24,000 nucleotides of DNA from Thermoproteota archaeon (GCA_029258835.1 JAPDJY010000048.1:33195-57194); one strand, 5' to 3'; shown: positions 2 through 13,805, counted from the stretch's first letter. Notes: generated by a model from the letters alone, not told the origin. A program made the numbers and translations.

Positions 2-1827
<1,826 letters not shown>

Positions 1828-7950: not shown

Positions 7951-9426
7951 TTGAGACTTCTTAACGATCACGTGTGCCCTATATGCGGGAATGAAGAGGT
8001 GAGTTATTACTGCGAGTCATGTAGCTCTCTTTTTTGTACTTCATGCGTTAAGGTTCTAAAGACAAACTACGCAGTGTGTGATACTTGTGGAACCATTTAC
8101 CATTTAGACCCTCCCTTGAATAAACCGTTTTTCTGCAAGTCGTGTAAGGGTACTGTCTTTAGGGTTGGTGTTAAGAGATCTCTTCTTTGTCCTCAATGCG
8201 GCTCAAATAATGTAGTGAGTGTGCTTAGAAAGAAAGAATTACAACTGAGTAGGGTTAAAGGCCTCGGAAGCGACTTCCTCGATGTTTCCCCGTTTATGAT
8301 GAATGTCTTAAATGCTCTCTCAAAGATTAAAGCTCGTCTTCTGAAGCTTAGAAGAAACGGTTTTCTTCATCACCCTGACCTTGAAGAAGCAATTATAAAC
8401 TCTTATGTCTCTTTTTCATCACTTAAACTTAAGGCTCTTTCTAGAGTAGAGCGAATAGTAAGTGGGTTAGCCTCCAGCATCATTAACCTCTTTAGGGAAT
8501 GGTCTCCTCTGAAAATTAAGGAGATAGACGCTTACCTTGACCAAGTTAGTGGTGCTGTAGAGGAGTATAAAGGATTCGTGAAAGATGAATGCCAAAGCAT
8601 CATAAGCAAAATACGTGAAGTAAGCGCAGTCATAGAATACCTGGAATTTCATCATAACTTCTTTGAACGTTTTAAGAGCATACTCGACTTAAAGGATCAT
8701 GAAAGGCCCGTTTGCGTTATTCCTGAAGTCAAGTATACTGGCAGCGATTTTCTCTCTTCAGACAAAGGTGAAGGCTTATTATTCTTTACAAGTGAACGAG
8801 CCATATTCATAAGGCGGGAAGGGCTTCTTAAGAAGATGTTTAAAAGGCAGTTTAGTTTCCCATTAAACGATGTTGAACTTTTAGTTAAACGTGGTCTGCG
8901 GCGTGCTTTTATCCTTAAAACGGGCAAGGGGAAGGTCTGCTTTACGTCTTCAAGGCATGTTATAGAAAAAATTGAATCTTACTTTGAACTGGCAAAAAAC
9001 TTTAAGTCTCTCTCTTTGGCAGATGATACATTAACAAAAAGGCTTGAATCCATGAGTGTAGGCTTAAATGATTTCAAAAGAAAAATAACGTCTCTAATGC
9101 ATTCGCTTTTAAACCCAAAGAAAGCTGAATCTGAACACTCTCAACAAGTTCCTTCCCATCTTAACATTCCCTTTCCCCCTTCGCTCCCTCCCCCCCGCCC
9201 TTCTTGCTCAGTAATTCCACCTTACAGAAACGAGAATGACCGTAGAAAAGAGCTTCTCCTTCTAGAGAAGGAGAGGTTCGCGGTGGAGCAGAACCTCAAA
9301 AAACTCGAAGAGTTATGGGATAAAGGAGAAATTTCACTTGAAGACTACTTTAAACTTTCAAGGAAATTCAAGGGTGAACTTTACGAGCTTAACGCCAAAA
9401 TTCAGGAATTGACGTGCCGCCTCTAG
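7951..9426 (+). CDS. Hypothetical multidomain protein: triple zinc ribbon, helical region, PH/GRAM-like domain, Pro-rich linker, SHOCT-like C-terminal helix
   Basis: The TTG start lies 7 nt after AAGGTGA (7937-7943). Six CxxC pairs occur at C9/12, C21/24, C29/32, C43/46, C62/65 and C80/83. Residues about 255-347 (GEGLLFFTSERAIFIRREG...RAFILKTGKGKVCFTS) read as a PH-like fold. A Pro-rich stretch IPFPPSLPPPRPSCSVIPPY follows. The tail is LKKLEELWDKGEISLEDYFKLSRKF. The domain calls rest on pattern recognition only. Confidence 0.8.
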   Translation: MRLLNDHVCPICGNEEVSYYCESCSSLFCTSCVKVLKTNYAVCDTCGTIYHLDPPLNKPFFCKSCKGTVFRVGVKRSLLCPQCGSNNVVSVLRKKELQLSRVKGLGSDFLDVSPFMMNVLNALSKIKARLLKLRRNGFLHHPDLEEAIINSYVSFSSLKLKALSRVERIVSGLASSIINLFREWSPLKIKEIDAYLDQVSGAVEEYKGFVKDECQSIISKIREVSAVIEYLEFHHNFFERFKSILDLKDHERPVCVIPEVKYTGSDFLSSDKGEGLLFFTSERAIFIRREGLLKKMFKRQFSFPLNDVELLVKRGLRRAFILKTGKGKVCFTSSRHVIEKIESYFELAKNFKSLSLADDTLTKRLESMSVGLNDFKRKITSLMHSLLNPKKAESEHSQQVPSHLNIPFPPSLPPPRPSCSVIPPYRNENDRRKELLLLEKERFAVEQNLKKLEELWDKGEISLEDYFKLSRKFKGELYELNAKIQELTCRL

Positions 9427-9440
9427 CATCCTCTTCCTAA

Positions 9441-10088
9441 TCATCCTTTCTCCTCGGCTTTCTCCTTTTTCTCTCCTTCTTCAAGCTCCTTCCTTAAGCT
9501 TTCTAGGTCTTCTAGAAGTACTTCCTTGTCGGGTATTGGCGGCTCCGTTGGGACTTCCGGCTCTTTAACCCCCTCGAGAGCTATTTCCGCTTCAAGTTTG
9601 TCCAACTCGGCGCTTACGTCTATGCCCTCCCCCATGCTTACCGGCGATGACAGTAACTCTCCGCTCCTATCTATTTCCTCCATCATCTGTTCGTGCCTTA
9701 TAGTCATCTCCATTATTTCATCCGAGCTGGCAAGCTTCATTGCGTCTTCCATGATCTTCCCAGCAGCAGCAACGCTTTCCTTAACCTGCACTATGTCATG
9801 GGCTTGCTCTATAGCGAAAAGCCGTGTTTCAAGGTTCTCTATAAACCCGGCATACCTGTTAAGGGCATTTAGATAGAAGTGGTATCGCCTCAAAGCGAGT
9901 TCAGCACCTTTTCTATTACCCGCTCTAAGATACATTTTCGCGGTTTCTCTAGCCCTTCTCGCCTGTTGCTCATACCTCTTTGACTTAGCGATTAAATTGT
10001 TTATGGTAGCCCTTATCTCACTAATTATTTGATCTCTGCTCTTAGGTCTCTTACCAAACAGCTTGTCTTTTAAGCTCATTCGAACCAT
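9441..10088 (-). CDS. ESCRT-III / Snf7 (CdvB-like) superfamily protein, paralogue A
   Basis: It shows MSLKDKLFGKRPK.., then a long helical hairpin with tip ..AKMYLRAGNRKGAELALRRY.., then IEQAHD..V..ESVAAAGKIMEDAMK, acidic helices (ELDKLEAEIALEG), and a Pro-rich and helical tail EPEVPTEPPIPDKEVLLEDLESLRKELEE. The likely true start is the second ATG (10079, giving MSLK..). Confidence 0.8.
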   Translation of the reverse strand: MVRMSLKDKLFGKRPKSRDQIISEIRATINNLIAKSKRYEQQARRARETAKMYLRAGNRKGAELALRRYHFYLNALNRYAGFIENLETRLFAIEQAHDIVQVKESVAAAGKIMEDAMKLASSDEIMEMTIRHEQMMEEIDRSGELLSSPVSMGEGIDVSAELDKLEAEIALEGVKEPEVPTEPPIPDKEVLLEDLESLRKELEEGEKKEKAEEKG

Positions 10089-10108
10089 TTTCCCCCTTCA
10101 TGTTCCAG

Positions 10109-10116
10109 TATAAATA
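10109..10116 (-). promoter_or_regulatory. Putative TATA box (minus-strand TATTTATA) for ESCRT-III paralogue A
   Basis: The A/T box lies 21-28 nt upstream of ATG 10088, within the 73-nt gap after the ATPase stop. It suggests an internal promoter and a near-leaderless transcript. Sequence only. Confidence 0.4.
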
Positions 10117-10161
10117 GCACATAACTACTAATTAAATCTCTCTCTTAAGGCACGTAGCGGC

Positions 10162-13125
10162 TTATCCGCTTCCTAACATCCTCCTAAGCTCTTCTATCTT
10201 CTTGAACGCCTTCTTCCTAAGGAAGCTATACTCTTCCTCGGTCATCCTACCAAGCAAGTAATACTCGTGTAAACTTCGAAGATACTTCTGGATTCTTCCA
10301 ATTTTCGAAATAATTTCCTCATCGCTCATCCCTTCTCTTGCAAGCTCCCTTCCTAATCGTGTTTCTCCTTCGGCACTCGCCTTAACCTCCACTTTCCCTC
10401 TTTCAGCACTTTCATCAACACTAGGCTTCTCCCTTACCATCATGCTTACCGCTTTCATTTCTTTCTCCTCTTTTCCTTTCCTCCTTTCCACCTTGACTTT
10501 TGGTGGCGGAATCCACCCTCCTTCTCTACTAATCTCTTGGAGAATGTTTTCTATCAATTCTTTGGCCGTCATTGCTTCCCCTTTGCTTGGCGCTGTGACC
10601 TCAAACGCTATTACTGATGCGGTGTTGGTCCAAGCCAAGCTAAATCCTATTCTAACGTTTCCTTTCTGTCCCAGAAAAACTAGGGCATCCCCCTCTAAGC
10701 AAGTGAGCTCCCAGCCTTGAAGCGTGAGCTTCTCTCTTAACGTAGAAAGCATCTTCTCAGGGTCTACTCTGAGAGCCTTCTGAAAGTTTACCCCTTGAAT
10801 CTTGGAAGATGGGTAAAGGTACTCGTTAAACCTATACTTTATAAGCCTTGAAAGATAGTCTCCTGCCAAGTCATCCGAAACGTCTAATATCGGAATTCTC
10901 TTTTTAGCAACACCAACCCTCTCCTCACCACCAACCATCCCAACTCCACTTTCATCCATCTTAACTTCCACTTTCTCCCCTATTTTTTCTGGAATCAAAG
11001 ATGTAACTTCTTCGCTTCTCCCCTCCTCCAAGAGAGAGGCCGATCCTGGCCTGGCTAGTCCTGGTATAGCCTCCCTGCCAGCATGTTGGCTTTGCCTAGG
11101 CCTAATCTTAACCGCTAAAACCCGTCCTGTATCTATCGAAGCATCCGAGATCAAAGCCATACCTATAGGGATCCTACGTATAAAGTCTCTTGACATCTCT
11201 TGGGGGACCTTATTTGGCGATCTTCGCATGAACGCCTCTATATCCGCCTCAAATGTTAAATAATGTGTAATTATCATGTCAACTTGAGACAGGATTTGGT
11301 CGCTGGTTGCTGAGGGTTGCTGGGTGGCTAGAACTAAAGCGCACCCCGGCTTTCTTCCAAGCTTAGCATACTCTATTAACGGTCCAGAAGCAGCCGTCTC
11401 CCCCCTAGCAGGGGCAAGTATATGTGCCTCATCGACCATTAGCCAAGTGACAGGGATCTCTTCCTTAATAGCGCCCACGGAACCAAACTGTAATCCCTCC
11501 TCCCTCCTCGCCAGCTGCATCCTCTTCTCAAGTATCTTCCTTGCCAGTAACCCAACAACTAGCCCGCGCAGCCCCTCTGTTAAATAGCTTACATCAACTA
11601 CAGTAACCATATTTGGAACGGCAATTTGGTCTAATGGAGTTCCTTCCCGGGAAAATATCCCCCATTCCTTTGCAGATAAAAGTCTAGAAATGACGGCCCT
11701 CCTAGTGTCGGTTCTGAAGCCTCTGTCTTTAGAAAGAAGTTCTAGAGACGTTTCAACACATTTGATCATGTCGTCTATGGTGTACTCGTCTCTCTTCCCC
11801 TCCACCCTAATTTTCTCGTCTCCTTCAACTGCTTCATACCCTTCTCTTACCTGTATTAGGGCACGTTCAAGCAGTAATCCCATAGCGCCGAATCTCTCCA
11901 CTCCGAACGCATAGCACCAGTCATCTACTGTTAGGTCGGAAGGCTTTATAGAGAACGCCATATCCCTCGTAGCATCAGGCAGCTTATCGTAGACGCCTAA
12001 AGGCACGAGCACTCTGATGTTGGTAAACCCTCGAGGCTTAAGCCCCCATCTTCTAAGCTCTTCAACTTCCTTCTCCTCCCTGTTTGGATACTTCATACTC
12101 CAGAAAATCCCCACCGGATCTACTATTACAACTGCTAACCCTAAGCCTGACCTTGCAAGCTCCTCAGCTAAAACACCCATCGTGTAAGACTTACCTGACC
12201 CACGCTGGCCACATATGAATATAACGTGTGGTTTAAGGGCATCCACTAGAACAGGTTTGCCAAGGAAATTATTTTCTTCCGCCCGCTCACATATACATCC
12301 AATGTACATAAGCCCCTTAGCACCGAAGGTTTGCAACTTATCCCTACTTCTACCAAGCACAACCCCTTCCCCTACCGGATCCTCAAGAACCCTAAGCTTC
12401 GAGGAAACCTCCAATGGTTCCTTTACGATTCTTCCTCTCTCCTCCTCTCTAACTTTTAATTCTCCTAGAAATGCAGAGAAGCGGCGCCACATCCCCTCGT
12501 CATAGAAGTTTAATGACTCAAATATCATATCCCTAGCTTTTTCATCCTTTGGATACACGTCTACTTCAAAGCCACATAACTCCCAGCATGATACGGCTAC
12601 ATCGCTCTCACTTAATCCCTTTCTACCCAGCTCCTCAACGGCTCTCTCAAAGTACTCGCTTTTTCTGGTAGCTCCGTAAAGTATCAGCAATCCCTTCGCT
12701 TTTTCTTCTTGAGGAAGTTGCTCAACCATTTCTCTCATCTTAGAAAGGATCTCCTCTTTTCCACTCCTTCGAAATTCTTCAAGGAGAACTCGGAGGATTT
12801 GTAAGTCCACAGGTTTCGTGCGAAACGCGTACTCAACCATTTTACTTAAGGCATTTTTAACATCGTCTAAGCCCTGCCCATCAACTTGGAGAATGAGTCT
12901 GAACGCGTGGGCAAGGGATGAAAGGTCATTTTCAAGTTCTCTTCCCTCTAAAATATTCTTTGCAAGCTTCACCGCTCCCTTCCTTGCCCTTTCAAGGTAC
13001 TCATCCATTCCAGTAAGCCGGTAGGCGATCAACAACGCGTTAATGATGTCGCTACTAAGCTTCACGTCTTTAAGTGCTTCTAGGGAAACATATAGAAATT
13101 CGTAAATCGGTCTACCTCTTTCCAA
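10162..13125 (-). CDS. 987-aa HerA/FtsK-superfamily (DUF87-like) P-loop ATPase with a helical N-terminal extension and a C-terminal extra domain plus SHOCT-like tail
   Basis: Walker A is LKPHVIFICGQRGSGKSYT (GQRGSGKS at 12187-12210). Walker B is VTWLMVDEAHILAP (11422-11445). It is followed by KLGRKPGCALVLATQQPS and VDMIITHYLT, the layout I associate with HerA/COG0433. Residues 1-230 are helical repeats. Residues 745-870 form an unassigned alpha/beta region. A K/E-rich linker leads to the tail LRSLHEYYLLGRMTEEEYSFLRKKAFKKIEEL. Confidence 0.85.
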   Translation of the reverse strand: MERGRPIYEFLYVSLEALKDVKLSSDIINALLIAYRLTGMDEYLERARKGAVKLAKNILEGRELENDLSSLAHAFRLILQVDGQGLDDVKNALSKMVEYAFRTKPVDLQILRVLLEEFRRSGKEEILSKMREMVEQLPQEEKAKGLLILYGATRKSEYFERAVEELGRKGLSESDVAVSCWELCGFEVDVYPKDEKARDMIFESLNFYDEGMWRRFSAFLGELKVREEERGRIVKEPLEVSSKLRVLEDPVGEGVVLGRSRDKLQTFGAKGLMYIGCICERAEENNFLGKPVLVDALKPHVIFICGQRGSGKSYTMGVLAEELARSGLGLAVVIVDPVGIFWSMKYPNREEKEVEELRRWGLKPRGFTNIRVLVPLGVYDKLPDATRDMAFSIKPSDLTVDDWCYAFGVERFGAMGLLLERALIQVREGYEAVEGDEKIRVEGKRDEYTIDDMIKCVETSLELLSKDRGFRTDTRRAVISRLLSAKEWGIFSREGTPLDQIAVPNMVTVVDVSYLTEGLRGLVVGLLARKILEKRMQLARREEGLQFGSVGAIKEEIPVTWLMVDEAHILAPARGETAASGPLIEYAKLGRKPGCALVLATQQPSATSDQILSQVDMIITHYLTFEADIEAFMRRSPNKVPQEMSRDFIRRIPIGMALISDASIDTGRVLAVKIRPRQSQHAGREAIPGLARPGSASLLEEGRSEEVTSLIPEKIGEKVEVKMDESGVGMVGGEERVGVAKKRIPILDVSDDLAGDYLSRLIKYRFNEYLYPSSKIQGVNFQKALRVDPEKMLSTLREKLTLQGWELTCLEGDALVFLGQKGNVRIGFSLAWTNTASVIAFEVTAPSKGEAMTAKELIENILQEISREGGWIPPPKVKVERRKGKEEKEMKAVSMMVREKPSVDESAERGKVEVKASAEGETRLGRELAREGMSDEEIISKIGRIQKYLRSLHEYYLLGRMTEEEYSFLRKKAFKKIEELRRMLGSG

Positions 13126-13178: not shown

Positions 13179-13805
13179 TTAAAGCTCTTCCTTAAGCTTC
13201 TTTATATCCTTCTCAAGCTCTGCGATTTTACCTGCAGGAACAGAAGGAAGCTTCACACCCGTTTCAACACCTATCTCTTGATCTATCTCTGAAAGGGTTT
13301 CAGCTACCTCCTTTGAGGTCACATCGGTTGAAACAGTCATCCTCTCAAATCCAGCTTCCGTCACATCTTGAGCTATATCAAACTCCTGCATTGAAGCATC
13401 GATCTCATCTACAAGCTGCGAAATGTCCGGGAGATTAACCGTGCTTTTTAACCCTTCCAATGCTGCCCTAATACCAGAGAGAGTGCTTGCGACCTCGTAA
13501 ACGGACTGGCTCTGCCGTAGTTTAACAACCATCCCGTGAATTCTAAGCCTATAAGAATCAGTAGCTAAAGCCCATTTTTGATATCTCAGGTAATGCTCAG
13601 CATACATCTTCGCCGCCTCATTATTACCCATCATGCGGTAACGCTTCGCTTCCTCCCTGTTCTTCCTAGCCTCCCTTTCCAACTGTTTCTTATGGTATTC
13701 AAGTTTCCTCGTGAACACTTCAAGCTTGAAAATCACGTCTTTAAGTTTTGGGCCACCCTTAAGCCAGTTTATGAACTTCCTTAGCGACATAGAAACCACC
13801 AGCAT
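13179..13805 (-). CDS. ESCRT-III / Snf7 (CdvB-like) superfamily protein, paralogue B
   Basis: It shows MSLRKFINWLKGGPK.., then a hairpin with tip ..AKRYRMMGNNEAAKMYAEHY.. that I could align by eye to paralogue A. It continues with ..VASTLSGIRAALEGLK.., acidic helices, and the tail GVKLPSVPAGKIAELEKDIKKLKEEL. The likely true start is ATG 13790 (MSLR..). Confidence 0.75.
   Translation of the reverse strand: MLVVSMSLRKFINWLKGGPKLKDVIFKLEVFTRKLEYHKKQLEREARKNREEAKRYRMMGNNEAAKMYAEHYLRYQKWALATDSYRLRIHGMVVKLRQSQSVYEVASTLSGIRAALEGLKSTVNLPDISQLVDEIDASMQEFDIAQDVTEAGFERMTVSTDVTSKEVAETLSEIDQEIGVETGVKLPSVPAGKIAELEKDIKKLKEEL

What the first reader, a model, noticed from the sequence alone, without database searches (positions are those of the whole stretch)
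10162..13125. HerA/FtsK-type ATPase with a 230-aa all-helical N-terminal extension that could be an MIT-like ESCRT-III receptor
Seen in the sequence: upstream of a short beta-rich segment and the Walker A motif, residues 1-230 are predicted helix-turn-helix repeats. Examples are ..IINALLIAYRLTGMDEYLERARKGAVKLAKNILEG.., ..LSSLAHAFRLILQ.. and ..LQILRVLLEEFRRSGKEEILSKMREMVEQL... Downstream of the ATPase core lie an unassigned alpha/beta region (residues 745-870), a K/E-rich linker and a SHOCT-like helix.

Established knowledge: canonical HerA has only a small HAS barrel N-terminal to the P-loop domain. Vps4 recognises ESCRT-III tails through an N-terminal three-helix MIT bundle.

Inference: the N-terminal repeats could be tandem MIT/TPR-like bundles that read the Pro-rich tails of the flanking ESCRT-III proteins. 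This would be a domain fusion convergent with Vps4 on a different ATPase scaffold.
Basis: partly seen in the sequence, partly recalled or inferred. Interest (0 to 1): 0.75.

Follow-up and report, generated by a model that had tools for sequence, protein, structure and literature searches.

The report
HerA-type ATPase inside Asgard ESCRT cluster
An Asgard archaeon encodes a 987-residue HerA/FtsK-type ATPase between its two ESCRT-III genes; this arrangement recurs across Asgard lineages, is tied to two lineage-specific extra domains (neither is MIT-like), and I found no description of it in the literature I could search.

Summary

The MIT/TPR reading of residues 1-237 is not supported. A confident AF2 model (pLDDT 91.6) has 12 helices. 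Its best matches are (alpha/alpha)6-toroid enzymes, and no MIT domain is among the 50 best.

The ESCRT link is strongly supported by gene context:
- The flanking genes are the canonical Asgard ESCRT-IIIA (upstream) and ESCRT-IIIB (downstream).
- Among 80 relatives in species genomes, 13 of 18 loci with the N-domain have Snf7 within 3 kb, against 0 of 62 without it.
- In Loki/Hel/Hod loci the gene lies in the ubiquitin-ESCRT cluster next to Vps4.
- One variant keeps the N- and C-domains, lacks the ATPase core, and still sits between two Snf7 genes.

A true MIT-Vps4 coexists in these lineages, and the ESCRT-III tails look like ordinary MIM motifs. The Pro-rich tails therefore do not call for a new reader.

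Best reading: a second, HerA-type motor tethered to ESCRT-III by lineage-specific N/C adaptor domains. Its substrate (ESCRT-III polymer or DNA) is unresolved. No paper I could search links these components.

The parts
12415..13125 (-). N-terminal 12-helix domain (residues 1-237), (alpha/alpha)-toroid-like; specific to the ESCRT-linked clade
   Evidence: AF2 model: pLDDT 91.6, 12 helices. Foldseek top hits are GH76, GH88 and LanCL1 toroids. The profile finds only this ATPase family, plus weak hits to toroid enzymes. Absent from non-Asgard homologues.
12226..12414 (-). Short beta-rich segment (residues 238-300) where the conserved core of the wider family begins; possibly a HAS-barrel-like element (not modelled)
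   Evidence: Non-Asgard homologues align from query residue about 238-255. Invariant G258, G271, G276 and E280.
11056..12225 (-). HerA/FtsK-superfamily P-loop ATPase core (residues 301-690); Walker A 306-313 (nt 12187-12210), Walker B 561-568 (nt 11422-11445)
   Evidence: Pfam DUF87 51.2 bits and a weak HerA_C match. PDB HerA chains match at E=1.6e-9 to 1e-4. Core is 45-51% identical across archaea. Motifs located and invariant.
10894..11055 (-). Acidic, low-confidence linker (residues 691-744)
   Evidence: pLDDT about 40 in the model of residues 690-987.
10522..10893 (-). C-terminal alpha+beta domain (residues 745-868), TBP-like/helix-grip-like
   Evidence: pLDDT >90, topology H-H-E-H-E-E-E-E-H. 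Foldseek hits to Bet v1/PYR1, the phosphoglucomutase C-domain and the spermine synthase N-domain at E about 2e-4, TMt 0.4-0.47. R760, Y764, P789 and W805 are nearly invariant.
10324..10521 (-). K/E-rich disordered linker (residues 869-934); Jord/Frey lineage only
   Evidence: pLDDT <50 for most of it. 32% K+E. Orthologues from Hod, Hel, Loki and Heimdall end at about query residue 865.
10165..10323 (-). C-terminal helical hairpin (residues 935-985); Jord/Frey lineage only; not a Pfam SHOCT
   Evidence: Two helices with pLDDT about 95. No SHOCT hit at E<=10, only a weak GvpG match.
13179..13805 (-). ESCRT-IIIA (Vps2/24/46 = CHMP1-3 type), 208 aa, upstream; tail ...LPSVPAGKIAELEKDIKKLKEEL
   Evidence: Pfam Snf7 E=1.2e-19. 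Best PDB matches are CHMP1A and CHMP1B at E about 1e-11. Always the upstream partner in related loci.
9441..10088 (-). ESCRT-IIIB (Vps20/32/60 type), 215 aa, downstream; tail ...EPEVPTEPPIPDKEVLLEDLESLRKEL...
   Evidence: Pfam Snf7 E=1.1e-18. Best PDB match is Heimdallarchaeota AB_125 ESCRT-IIIB at E=2e-12. Always the downstream partner. A TTTATA box lies about 25 nt upstream of its ATG.
7951..9426 (+). Convergent 491-aa Zn-ribbon protein; architecture resembles the Asgard ESCRT-I-like 'Znr_PH_CC_SB' protein
   Evidence: B-box/Zn-ribbon hits. The orthologue in L011 has a weak bPH_3 hit. Conserved at this position in 5 Jord/Frey loci (family 22). The architecture is described in PMC10936438, section 6. 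Assignment is by architecture only.

Best explanation
The gene encodes an accessory motor of the Asgard ESCRT machinery. It is a HerA/FtsK-superfamily P-loop ATPase, and such ATPases are presumed to be hexameric.

Its ancestral core is widespread in archaea. In the ESCRT-linked clade the core carries two extra domains: an N-terminal (alpha/alpha)-toroid-like domain and a C-terminal TBP-like alpha+beta domain.

I propose that these two domains form an adaptor module that docks the ring onto ESCRT-IIIA/B subunits or polymers. The ring would then use ATP to act on the polymer or on what the polymer encloses, in parallel with Vps4 rather than in place of it. My preferred client is the ESCRT-III assembly itself (assembly, turnover or remodelling).

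Shown here: domain anatomy, intact catalytic motifs, the identities of the ESCRT-III neighbours, conserved gene order, co-occurrence of the N-domain with ESCRT-III, the motor-less N+C variant, and coexistence with Vps4.

Inferred: hexamer formation, physical binding of the N/C domains to ESCRT-III, and the nature of the substrate.
For: 1. The order ESCRT-IIIA, ATPase, ESCRT-IIIB on one strand, with 53-bp and 73-bp gaps, is seen in the window. The same order holds in Jord, Frey, Hel and Loki-type loci: L001, L003, L010, L011, L013, L015, L016 and L089.

2. In Hodarchaeota and Lokiarchaeota the gene sits inside the ubiquitin-ESCRT cluster. L089 reads E2, ubiquitin, RING, Vps23-like, EAP30, Vps25, Vps4, IIIA, ATPase, IIIB.

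3. In the species-genome survey, 13 of 18 N-domain loci have Snf7 within 3 kb, against 0 of 62 loci without the domain (Fisher p=3e-11). Three of the five negatives have 3.1 kb or less of contig beyond the ATPase gene, two of them under 0.5 kb.

4. The N-domain occurs nowhere else among 1.84 billion representatives.

5. The motor-less variant P0247 has the N-domain (E=5e-16) and the C-domain (E=3e-14) but no ATPase core. No core remnant is found in its locus. It still lies in the order Vps25, Vps4, then Snf7, P0247, Snf7. This suggests the N+C module carries the ESCRT-related function.

6. Walker A and B motifs and many Arg residues are invariant in the clade, so the motor is probably active.

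7. One relative carries a subtilase fusion (P0055). From background knowledge, VirB4 and EssC are FtsK/HerA-class ATPases that act on proteins, so protein clients are possible for this class.
Against: - No interaction was tested. All support is gene context plus structural models.
- A canonical MIT-Vps4 coexists, often two genes away. An ESCRT-III-directed motor would therefore be partly redundant.
- From background knowledge, most FtsK/HerA-superfamily members move DNA, not protein.
- Copies with the N-domain in a Bathyarchaeia MAG (L088), in L046 and in L066 have no Snf7 within the available flanks.
- The family was found in only part of Asgard diversity here. Thor homologues lack the N-domain and the Snf7 link.
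- From background knowledge, eukaryotes have no such ATPase, so it is not essential to ESCRT function in general.
- My NJ tree did not recover the N-domain clade as monophyletic.
Confidence: 0.45

Rival explanations
1. FtsK/SpoIIIE-like DNA pump tethered to ESCRT-III. The N/C domains localise the ring to an ESCRT-III-constricted membrane neck. There it translocates DNA, either clearing the neck before scission or loading DNA into budding vesicles.
For: - DUF87/HerA membership and the closest solved relatives are DNA-acting HerA proteins.
- Sister-clade proteins carry winged-helix domains after the core: TrmB in P0039 and PaaX-like in P0055.
- Several DPANN members carry inteins. From background knowledge, inteins are typical of DNA-metabolism proteins.
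- Coexistence with Vps4 is natural if the two motors have different substrates.
- From background knowledge, Iyer et al. 2004 proposed HerA as an archaeal FtsK analogue.
Against: - The Asgard form has no recognisable DNA-binding domain.
- No nuclease, Xer, Par or SMC genes appear in any of about 90 neighbourhoods.
- The motor-less N+C variant retained between the ESCRT-III genes is hard to explain if N+C is only a tether for a DNA pump.
- Asgard archaea retain FtsZ, probably for division, according to a review (PMC7619361). The need for neck clearance is therefore unclear.
Confidence: 0.28
2. Residues 1-230 are tandem MIT/TPR-like bundles that read the Pro-rich C-terminal tails of the flanking ESCRT-III proteins, as the Vps4 MIT domain does.
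For: - The extension is helical and strictly linked to ESCRT-III genes.
- The tails carry conserved Pro-rich and amphipathic motifs.
- From background knowledge, the central cavity of some (alpha/alpha)-toroids binds peptide tails, as in protein prenyltransferase beta and LanC. Tail binding by a different fold therefore remains conceivable.
Against: - No MIT structure is among the 50 best Foldseek hits. TPR hits have TM 0.2-0.3, against 0.43-0.6 for toroids.
- There are no Pfam MIT or TPR hits.
- The weak profile hits go to GH88, GH76, GH127 and LanC proteins.
- The tail motifs resemble ordinary MIM1/MIM2. The cognate MIT-Vps4 is present in the same lineages and clusters.
Confidence: 0.08
3. 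No functional link. A housekeeping archaeal DUF87 ATPase happens to sit between the ESCRT-III genes through inherited synteny, and its extra domains serve an unrelated role.
For: - The core family is widespread and highly conserved in archaea that show no Snf7 neighbour.
- Some N-domain copies have no Snf7 nearby: L088, L046 and L066.
- Surrounding genes in the window (TrmY, proteasome alpha, S26e) are unrelated housekeeping genes.
Against: - The linkage persists through rearrangements in at least five lineages. Flanks differ, an extra 345-aa gene appears, and Vps4 is adjacent or not.
- The linkage tracks the N-domain exactly.
- A version that lost the ATPase keeps the position.
Confidence: 0.1

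Closest known systems
HerA / DUF87-DUF853 clade of the FtsK-HerA superfamily (archaeal HerA-NurA repair helicase; anti-phage HerA scaffolds)
   Same: P-loop core with a Pfam DUF87 hit above threshold and a weak HerA_C hit. Sequence matches to solved HerA chains over residues about 505-665. A short beta-rich segment precedes Walker A.
   Different: NCBIfam HerA equivalog scores are 33-49 bits against cutoffs of 800-970, so it is not an orthologue of HerA proper. No NurA, Mre11, Rad50, Sir2 or other nuclease partner appears in any neighbourhood. It has unique N (toroid-like) and C (TBP-like) domains and ESCRT-III neighbours.
Vps4 / CdvC (ESCRT-IV AAA+ ATPase with N-terminal MIT domain)
   Same: An ATPase with an N-terminal all-helical accessory domain, encoded next to ESCRT-III genes. 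It could in principle act on ESCRT-III.
   Different: A different ATPase class (HerA/FtsK type, not AAA+), with no MIT and no Vps4_C. A true Vps4 coexists in the same lineages and clusters. It is an addition to Vps4, not a replacement.
FtsK/SpoIIIE septal DNA translocases
   Same: Same superfamily. A motor brought to a membrane-constriction apparatus by accessory domains would be functionally analogous.
   Different: No FtsK_SpoIIIE Pfam hit, no transmembrane anchor and no gamma/winged-helix DNA-recognition domain. The partner would be ESCRT-III rather than FtsZ. DNA translocation is untested.
(alpha/alpha)6-toroid ('six-hairpin') enzymes: GH76, GH88, GH127, LanC-like
   Same: These are the best structural matches of the N-domain (TMq 0.43-0.60, prob about 1.0). 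They are also the only non-family profile hits (E=1e-6 to 1e-3). The model has twelve helices, which equals six hairpins.
   Different: The domain is only about 235 aa, against 330-400 aa for the enzymes. Identity is about 10% and Foldseek E is only about 6e-3. Catalytic residues were not examined, and closure of the toroid could not be checked. It probably binds something rather than catalysing a reaction.
MIT-domain ATPases recruited to ESCRT-III for a second job (e.g. spastin)
   Same: The concept, from background knowledge: ESCRT-III recruits a second motor besides Vps4 to act on the contents of the neck.
   Different: There is no homology. This is analogy only.

Membership tests
FtsK-HerA superfamily, DUF87/HerA-like clade | P-loop core recognised by the DUF87 (HerA central) model above the curated threshold | tested here: met
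   PF01935 scores 51.2 bits against a cutoff of 23.2, over residues 304-531.
FtsK-HerA superfamily, DUF87/HerA-like clade | Intact Walker A and Walker B motifs | tested here: met
   GQRGSGKS at 306-313 and WLMVDEAH at 561-568. Both invariant in 20 orthologues.
HerA proper (HerA-NurA DNA end-resection helicase) | Equivalog-level sequence score | tested here: not met
   NF040819 scores 49.4 bits against a cutoff of 970, and NF040937 scores 41.5 against 800.
HerA proper (HerA-NurA DNA end-resection helicase) | Adjacent nurA / mre11 / rad50 genes | tested here: not met
   None in the window or in about 90 related loci.
HerA proper | Hexameric ring with N-terminal HAS barrel | not tested
Vps4 / ESCRT-IV | AAA+ ATPase domain plus Vps4_C | tested here: not met
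   There is no significant PF00004 or PF09336 hit. Only sub-threshold P-loop matches appear.
Vps4 / ESCRT-IV | N-terminal MIT three-helix bundle | tested here: not met
   No PF04212 hit, even at E<=10 on the isolated N-domain. No MIT structure among the 50 best Foldseek hits.
TPR repeat proteins | 34-residue helix-turn-helix repeats forming an open superhelix | tested here: not met
   No Pfam TPR hit. Designed and natural TPR structures align with TM of only 0.2-0.3 and rmsd 14-20 A.
(alpha/alpha)6-toroid superfamily | Six helical hairpins arranged as a closed toroid | tested here: inconclusive
SHOCT domain (C-terminal helix) | Match to the Pfam SHOCT model | tested here: not met
   No hit at E<=10. 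Only a weak GvpG match at E=0.0065. The model shows a two-helix hairpin.
Asgard ESCRT-III A/B pair (flanking genes) | Snf7 domain, with one paralogue of CHMP1-3 type and one of Vps20/32/60 type | tested here: met
.
ESCRT machinery component (as a claim about this ATPase) | Physical interaction with ESCRT subunits or an ESCRT-dependent phenotype | not testable with these tools
   Only conserved gene neighbourhood and domain co-occurrence are available.

The most novel reading that the evidence does not exclude
Asgard archaea have an unrecognised ESCRT component: a HerA/FtsK-type motor. It is encoded between ESCRT-IIIA and ESCRT-IIIB and docks on ESCRT-III through a dedicated toroid-like/TBP-like adaptor module. 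It works alongside Vps4 and is not present in eukaryotes. The closest archaeal model of the eukaryotic ESCRT pathway would then use two unrelated motors.
Probability: 0.5. Interest if true: 0.85.

Novelty: new variant of a known kind. Interest (0 to 1): 0.75.

Why it matters
Asgard ESCRT clusters are the main genomic evidence for a eukaryote-like membrane-remodelling system in the archaeal relatives of eukaryotes. They have been analysed repeatedly using Vps4 and known ESCRT domains as guides.

A large, catalytically intact ATPase of a different superfamily sits at the centre of that cluster in several classes. I found no discussion of it:
- No hit for HerA, FtsK or DUF87 in the main ESCRT survey text, and in its supplements only two unrelated HerA-NurA rows.
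- No paper holds both 'DUF87' and 'ESCRT'.
- Reviews name only Vps4 as the ATPase partner of archaeal ESCRT-III.

If the link is functional, in-vitro reconstitutions using only ESCRT-IIIA/B and Vps4 lack a component. It would also give a concrete handle on what Asgard ESCRT-III does: polymer turnover, or handling of DNA at membrane necks or in vesicles. The motor-less natural variant and the N/C adaptor domains are ready-made reagents for binding tests.

Tried and rejected
- Scanning genomes with the N-domain alignment alone failed because no stretch was conserved enough. I used the full-length alignment instead.
- I tested whether the C-terminal hairpin is homologous to the C-terminus of the neighbouring 491-aa Zn-ribbon protein. 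BLASTP was not significant. Both give only the same weak GvpG hit, so I make no claim.
- SHOCT assignment is rejected.
- I tested whether the HerA-like ATPase replaces Vps4 in Jord/Frey lineages. This is rejected, because bona fide Vps4 proteins are named from Jordarchaeales, Jordarchaeaceae and Freyarchaeota.
- An NJ tree of the core was meant to show a single origin of the N-domain clade. The Heimdall-type and Jord/Hod/Hel-type groups did not come out as sisters, with short internal branches, so this is unresolved.
- I looked for a conserved partner of the wider family to infer an ancestral function. The +1 gene is always co-directional but lineage-specific: an unknown 123-aa protein in Thor, DUF8179 in Methanofastidiosa, and membrane or transglutaminase-like proteins in Thermoplasmatota. 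No common theme emerged.
- An AF2 test of N-domain plus ESCRT-III tail was considered but not run.
- The bacterial promoter/terminator scan was not used because the organism is archaeal.
Full report
**Source and observation**

The window is archaeal. A 987-aa member of the same 90%-identity cluster as the ORF product is named from Candidatus Freyrarchaeum guaymaensis (MDO8062762.1) and from Freyarchaeota MAGs. The nearest named relatives, at 50-54% identity, are Jordarchaeales.

ORF 10162-13125(-) encodes 987 aa from a TTG start preceded by GGGAGG.

Pfam assigns DUF87 (HerA central domain) above threshold and gives a weak HerA_C match. NCBIfam HerA equivalogs score far below their cutoffs. PDB sequence matches are HerA proteins over residues about 505-665. 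Walker A (306-313) and Walker B (561-568) are intact and invariant in 20 orthologues. The two flanking ORFs are Snf7-family proteins.

**Anatomy**

Non-Asgard homologues align only from query residue about 238-255 to about 690, at 45-51% identity. Residues 1-237 are therefore a real extension.

I aligned 22 orthologous N-regions and obtained a confident AF2 model with pLDDT 91.6, pTM 0.88 and 12 helices.
- Foldseek against PDB puts (alpha/alpha)6-toroid enzymes first: GH76 mannanase, GH88 glucuronyl hydrolase and LanCL1. TMq is 0.43-0.60 and probability about 1.0, but E is only about 6e-3 and identity about 10%.
- TPR designs align at TM 0.2-0.3.
- No MIT protein is among the 50 best.

An HMM of the N-domain searched against 1.84 billion representatives gave independent support.
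- It finds only about 13 clusters at E<1e-8. All are N-termini of this ATPase or fragments of it.
- It also gives weak hits at E=1e-6 to 1e-3. Seven of the nine I scanned with Pfam are GH88, GH76, GH127, LanC-like or pectic-acid-lyase proteins. The other two are a repetitive MucBP protein and the motor-less variant described below.

Pfam gives no MIT or TPR hit. The N-domain is best described as a small, divergent toroid-like or six-hairpin domain.

A second model covered residues 690-987.
- Residues 691-744 are a disordered acidic linker.
- Residues 745-868 form a confident alpha+beta domain. Its Foldseek hits are Bet v1/PYR1, the phosphoglucomutase C-domain and the spermine synthase N-domain (E about 2e-4, TMt 0.4-0.47). 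I read these as TBP-like or helix-grip folds.
- Residues about 869-934 are a disordered K/E-rich linker.
- Residues 935-985 form a confident helical hairpin.

The last two elements exist only in Jord/Frey proteins. SHOCT is not detected.

**The neighbours are the canonical ESCRT-III pair**

The upstream Snf7 best matches CHMP1A/B and CHMP3/2A. The downstream Snf7 best matches Heimdallarchaeota AB_125 ESCRT-IIIB and yeast Snf7.

In every related locus the upstream gene is the A type and the downstream gene the B type.

Their tails are conserved:
- A type: ...LP(S/T)xP...ELEK(D/E)IK(K/R)LKEE.
- B type: a Pro-rich stretch followed by an amphipathic L..EL..L(R/K) segment.

From my knowledge of the MIM1/MIM2 consensus, these look like ordinary Vps4-MIT ligands.

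The convergent 491-aa gene (7951-9426) has three Zn-ribbons, a PH-like middle and a coiled-coil C-terminus. This matches the 'Znr_PH_CC_SB' ESCRT-I-like architecture described by Makarova et al. 2024.

**Comparative genomics**

Individual look-ups gave the following neighbourhoods.
- Snf7-ATPase-Snf7 in a Jordarchaeales genome and a Helarchaeota genome.
- In Hodarchaeota: Vps28, EAP30, Vps25, Vps4, Snf7, ATPase, then a 344-aa ORF, with ubiquitin, E2 and E1 further on.
- In a Lokiarchaeota MAG: E2, ubiquitin, RING, Vps23-like, EAP30, Vps25, Vps4, ESCRT-IIIA, ATPase, ESCRT-IIIB.
- Core-only homologues from Methanofastidiosum, a Hadarchaeales-like archaeon, a DPANN-like archaeon and Thorarchaeota have no Snf7 neighbour.

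A scan of one genome per species returned 80 loci. I called ORFs and built Snf7 and N-domain HMMs.
- 18 loci carry the N-domain: Jord, Frey, Hod, Hel/Loki-type, Heimdall-type and Asgardarchaeum.
- 13 of these 18 have Snf7 within 3 kb on the same strand.
- 0 of the 62 loci without the domain do (Fisher p=2.7e-11). This is not corrected for phylogeny.
- Three of the five negatives have 3.1 kb or less of contig beyond the ATPase gene, two of them under 0.5 kb.

Clear exceptions exist. L046 has no Snf7 in its full 6-kb flanks. L066 has only 0.3 kb upstream and no Snf7 in 3.6 kb downstream. A Bathyarchaeia MAG copy (L088) has no Snf7 within 8 kb.

The arrangement varies between lineages.
- In Hel/Loki-type and Hod loci, Vps4 is divergent from ESCRT-IIIA.
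- A conserved 282-373-aa all-helical protein with no Pfam hit follows the ATPase in 12 loci, but not in the window.

Linkage that survives such rearrangements argues against simple inherited synteny.

**A motor-less variant**

P0247 (457 aa) came up in the N-domain profile search.
- It contains the N-domain (E=5e-16) and the C-domain (E=3e-14), joined by an acidic linker.
- It has no ATPase core, and no core remnant is found in six-frame translation of its 15.8-kb locus.
- It lies in the order Vps25, Vps4, then Snf7, P0247, Snf7.

This rests on one assembled contig and needs confirmation. If real, the N+C module rather than the motor carries the ESCRT-specific role.

**Vps4 is not replaced**

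A search with the Hodarchaeota Vps4 returned MIT+AAA+Vps4_C proteins named from Jordarchaeales, Jordarchaeaceae and Freyarchaeota (P0179, P0150, P0182). Several Vps4 hits share contig lengths with ATPase hits. In L002, L012, L013, L016, L089 and L090 the two genes are one or two genes apart.

**Mechanism**

The functional association with ESCRT-III is well supported by context, and I put it at about 0.85. Everything else is inference.

I favour a second motor docked on ESCRT-III by the N/C adaptor module and acting on the ESCRT-III assembly (0.45 for this chain as a whole). Three points support it:
- the gene lies between the two polymer subunits;
- the N+C module persists without the motor;
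- one relative carries a subtilase fusion, which shows protein-directed roles are possible.

The main rival is an FtsK-like DNA pump tethered to ESCRT-III (0.28).
- For it: superfamily precedent, winged-helix fusions in relatives, and natural coexistence with Vps4.
- Against it: no DNA-binding domain and no DNA-related neighbours, and the motor-less variant.

Pure hitch-hiking gets 0.10.

**What is known**

None of the following mentions a HerA/FtsK/DUF87 ATPase in Asgard ESCRT clusters:
- The main survey of archaeal ESCRT systems, which used Vps4 as its scaffold. Its text has no occurrence of HerA, FtsK, DUF87 or P-loop. Its supplements contain only unrelated HerA-NurA rows.
- 'DUF87' together with 'ESCRT' returns no paper.
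- Searches for 'HerA-like' with ESCRT, and for FtsK with Asgard and ESCRT-III, return nothing relevant.
- Hatano et al. 2022 plotted Hel_GB_B synteny, the genome from which L016 comes, and coloured only genes with diagnostic Ub/ESCRT domains.
- A 2025 review lists only Vps4 as the ATPase partner of archaeal ESCRT-III.
- Other Asgard papers I checked are silent on it.

The held library is incomplete, so prior mention elsewhere cannot be excluded.

**Verdict**

- The ESCRT link is real at the genomic level and appears to be undescribed.
- The MIT-like fold and the Pro-rich-tail reasoning are not supported.
- I classify this as a new variant of a known kind: an ESCRT-III system with an additional, unrelated motor. 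Interest 0.75.

Noticed in passing
L090:6444-7817 (protein P0247): A natural variant has the N- and C-domains joined by an acidic linker. It has no ATPase core yet still lies between two Snf7 genes next to Vps4 and Vps25. It comes from a single Logan contig.
   Followed up: yes
L011:8802-9839, L002:10633-11667, L029:8725-9753 and 9 further loci: A conserved 282-373-aa all-helical soluble protein family with no Pfam hit sits directly downstream of the ATPase and in the same direction. It occurs in Jord RPF2, Freyarchaeota SQRJ, Hod and Heimdall-type loci but not in the window or in Hel/Loki loci. It may be a further partner.
   Followed up: partly
window 7951-9426 (+): A 491-aa protein with three Zn-ribbons, a PH-like middle and a coiled-coil C-terminus lies convergent with ESCRT-IIIB. 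It is conserved at this position in five Jord/Frey loci. Its architecture matches the published Asgard 'Znr_PH_CC_SB' ESCRT-I-like protein.
   Followed up: partly
L088:8001-10661 (P0019, Bathyarchaeota RBG_16_48_13): A full-length copy with the N-domain sits in a MAG labelled Bathyarchaeia, with no Snf7 within 8 kb. This could be horizontal transfer, mis-binning or a genuinely unlinked copy.
   Followed up: partly
proteins P0073, P0082, P0093, P0113 (DPANN homologues): The ATPase core of several Diapherotrites and Micrarchaeota homologues is interrupted by inteins (Pfam Intein_splicing and LAGLIDADG_3).
   Followed up: no
proteins P0055, P0039, P0057: Non-Asgard relatives carry other fusions. 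P0055 has an N-terminal subtilase plus a C-terminal PaaX-like winged helix. P0039 has a C-terminal TrmB winged helix. P0057 (Thermoplasmatota) has DUF835.
   Followed up: partly
L029:2618-5731(-), L037, L046, L055, L025: In Heimdall-type loci a roughly 1040-1085-aa protein with no Pfam hit is always divergent from the ATPase. Its conserved N-terminus reads ...QIIIS.E..TSFFS.GSVQDDA.LVSALGGAL....
   Followed up: no
window 10089-10161: A TTTATA box lies about 25 nt upstream of the ESCRT-IIIB ATG, in the 73-bp gap after the ATPase stop codon. ESCRT-IIIB may therefore have its own promoter.
   Followed up: no
window 59-1810 (+): A double-AAA Cdc48-type ATPase ORF runs from near the window start; the equivalent gene in L001 carries CDC48_N domains that this ORF lacks. 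No Vps4 is encoded in the 24-kb window.
   Followed up: partly
L013 (record titled Candidatus Deferrimicrobium sp.) and L046 (titled Bathyarchaeia): The organism labels are at odds with the contig content. L013 carries an Asgard-type cluster of Vps4, ESCRT-IIIA, ATPase and ESCRT-IIIB, and L046 carries a Heimdall-type ATPase locus. Mis-binning is likely.
   Followed up: no
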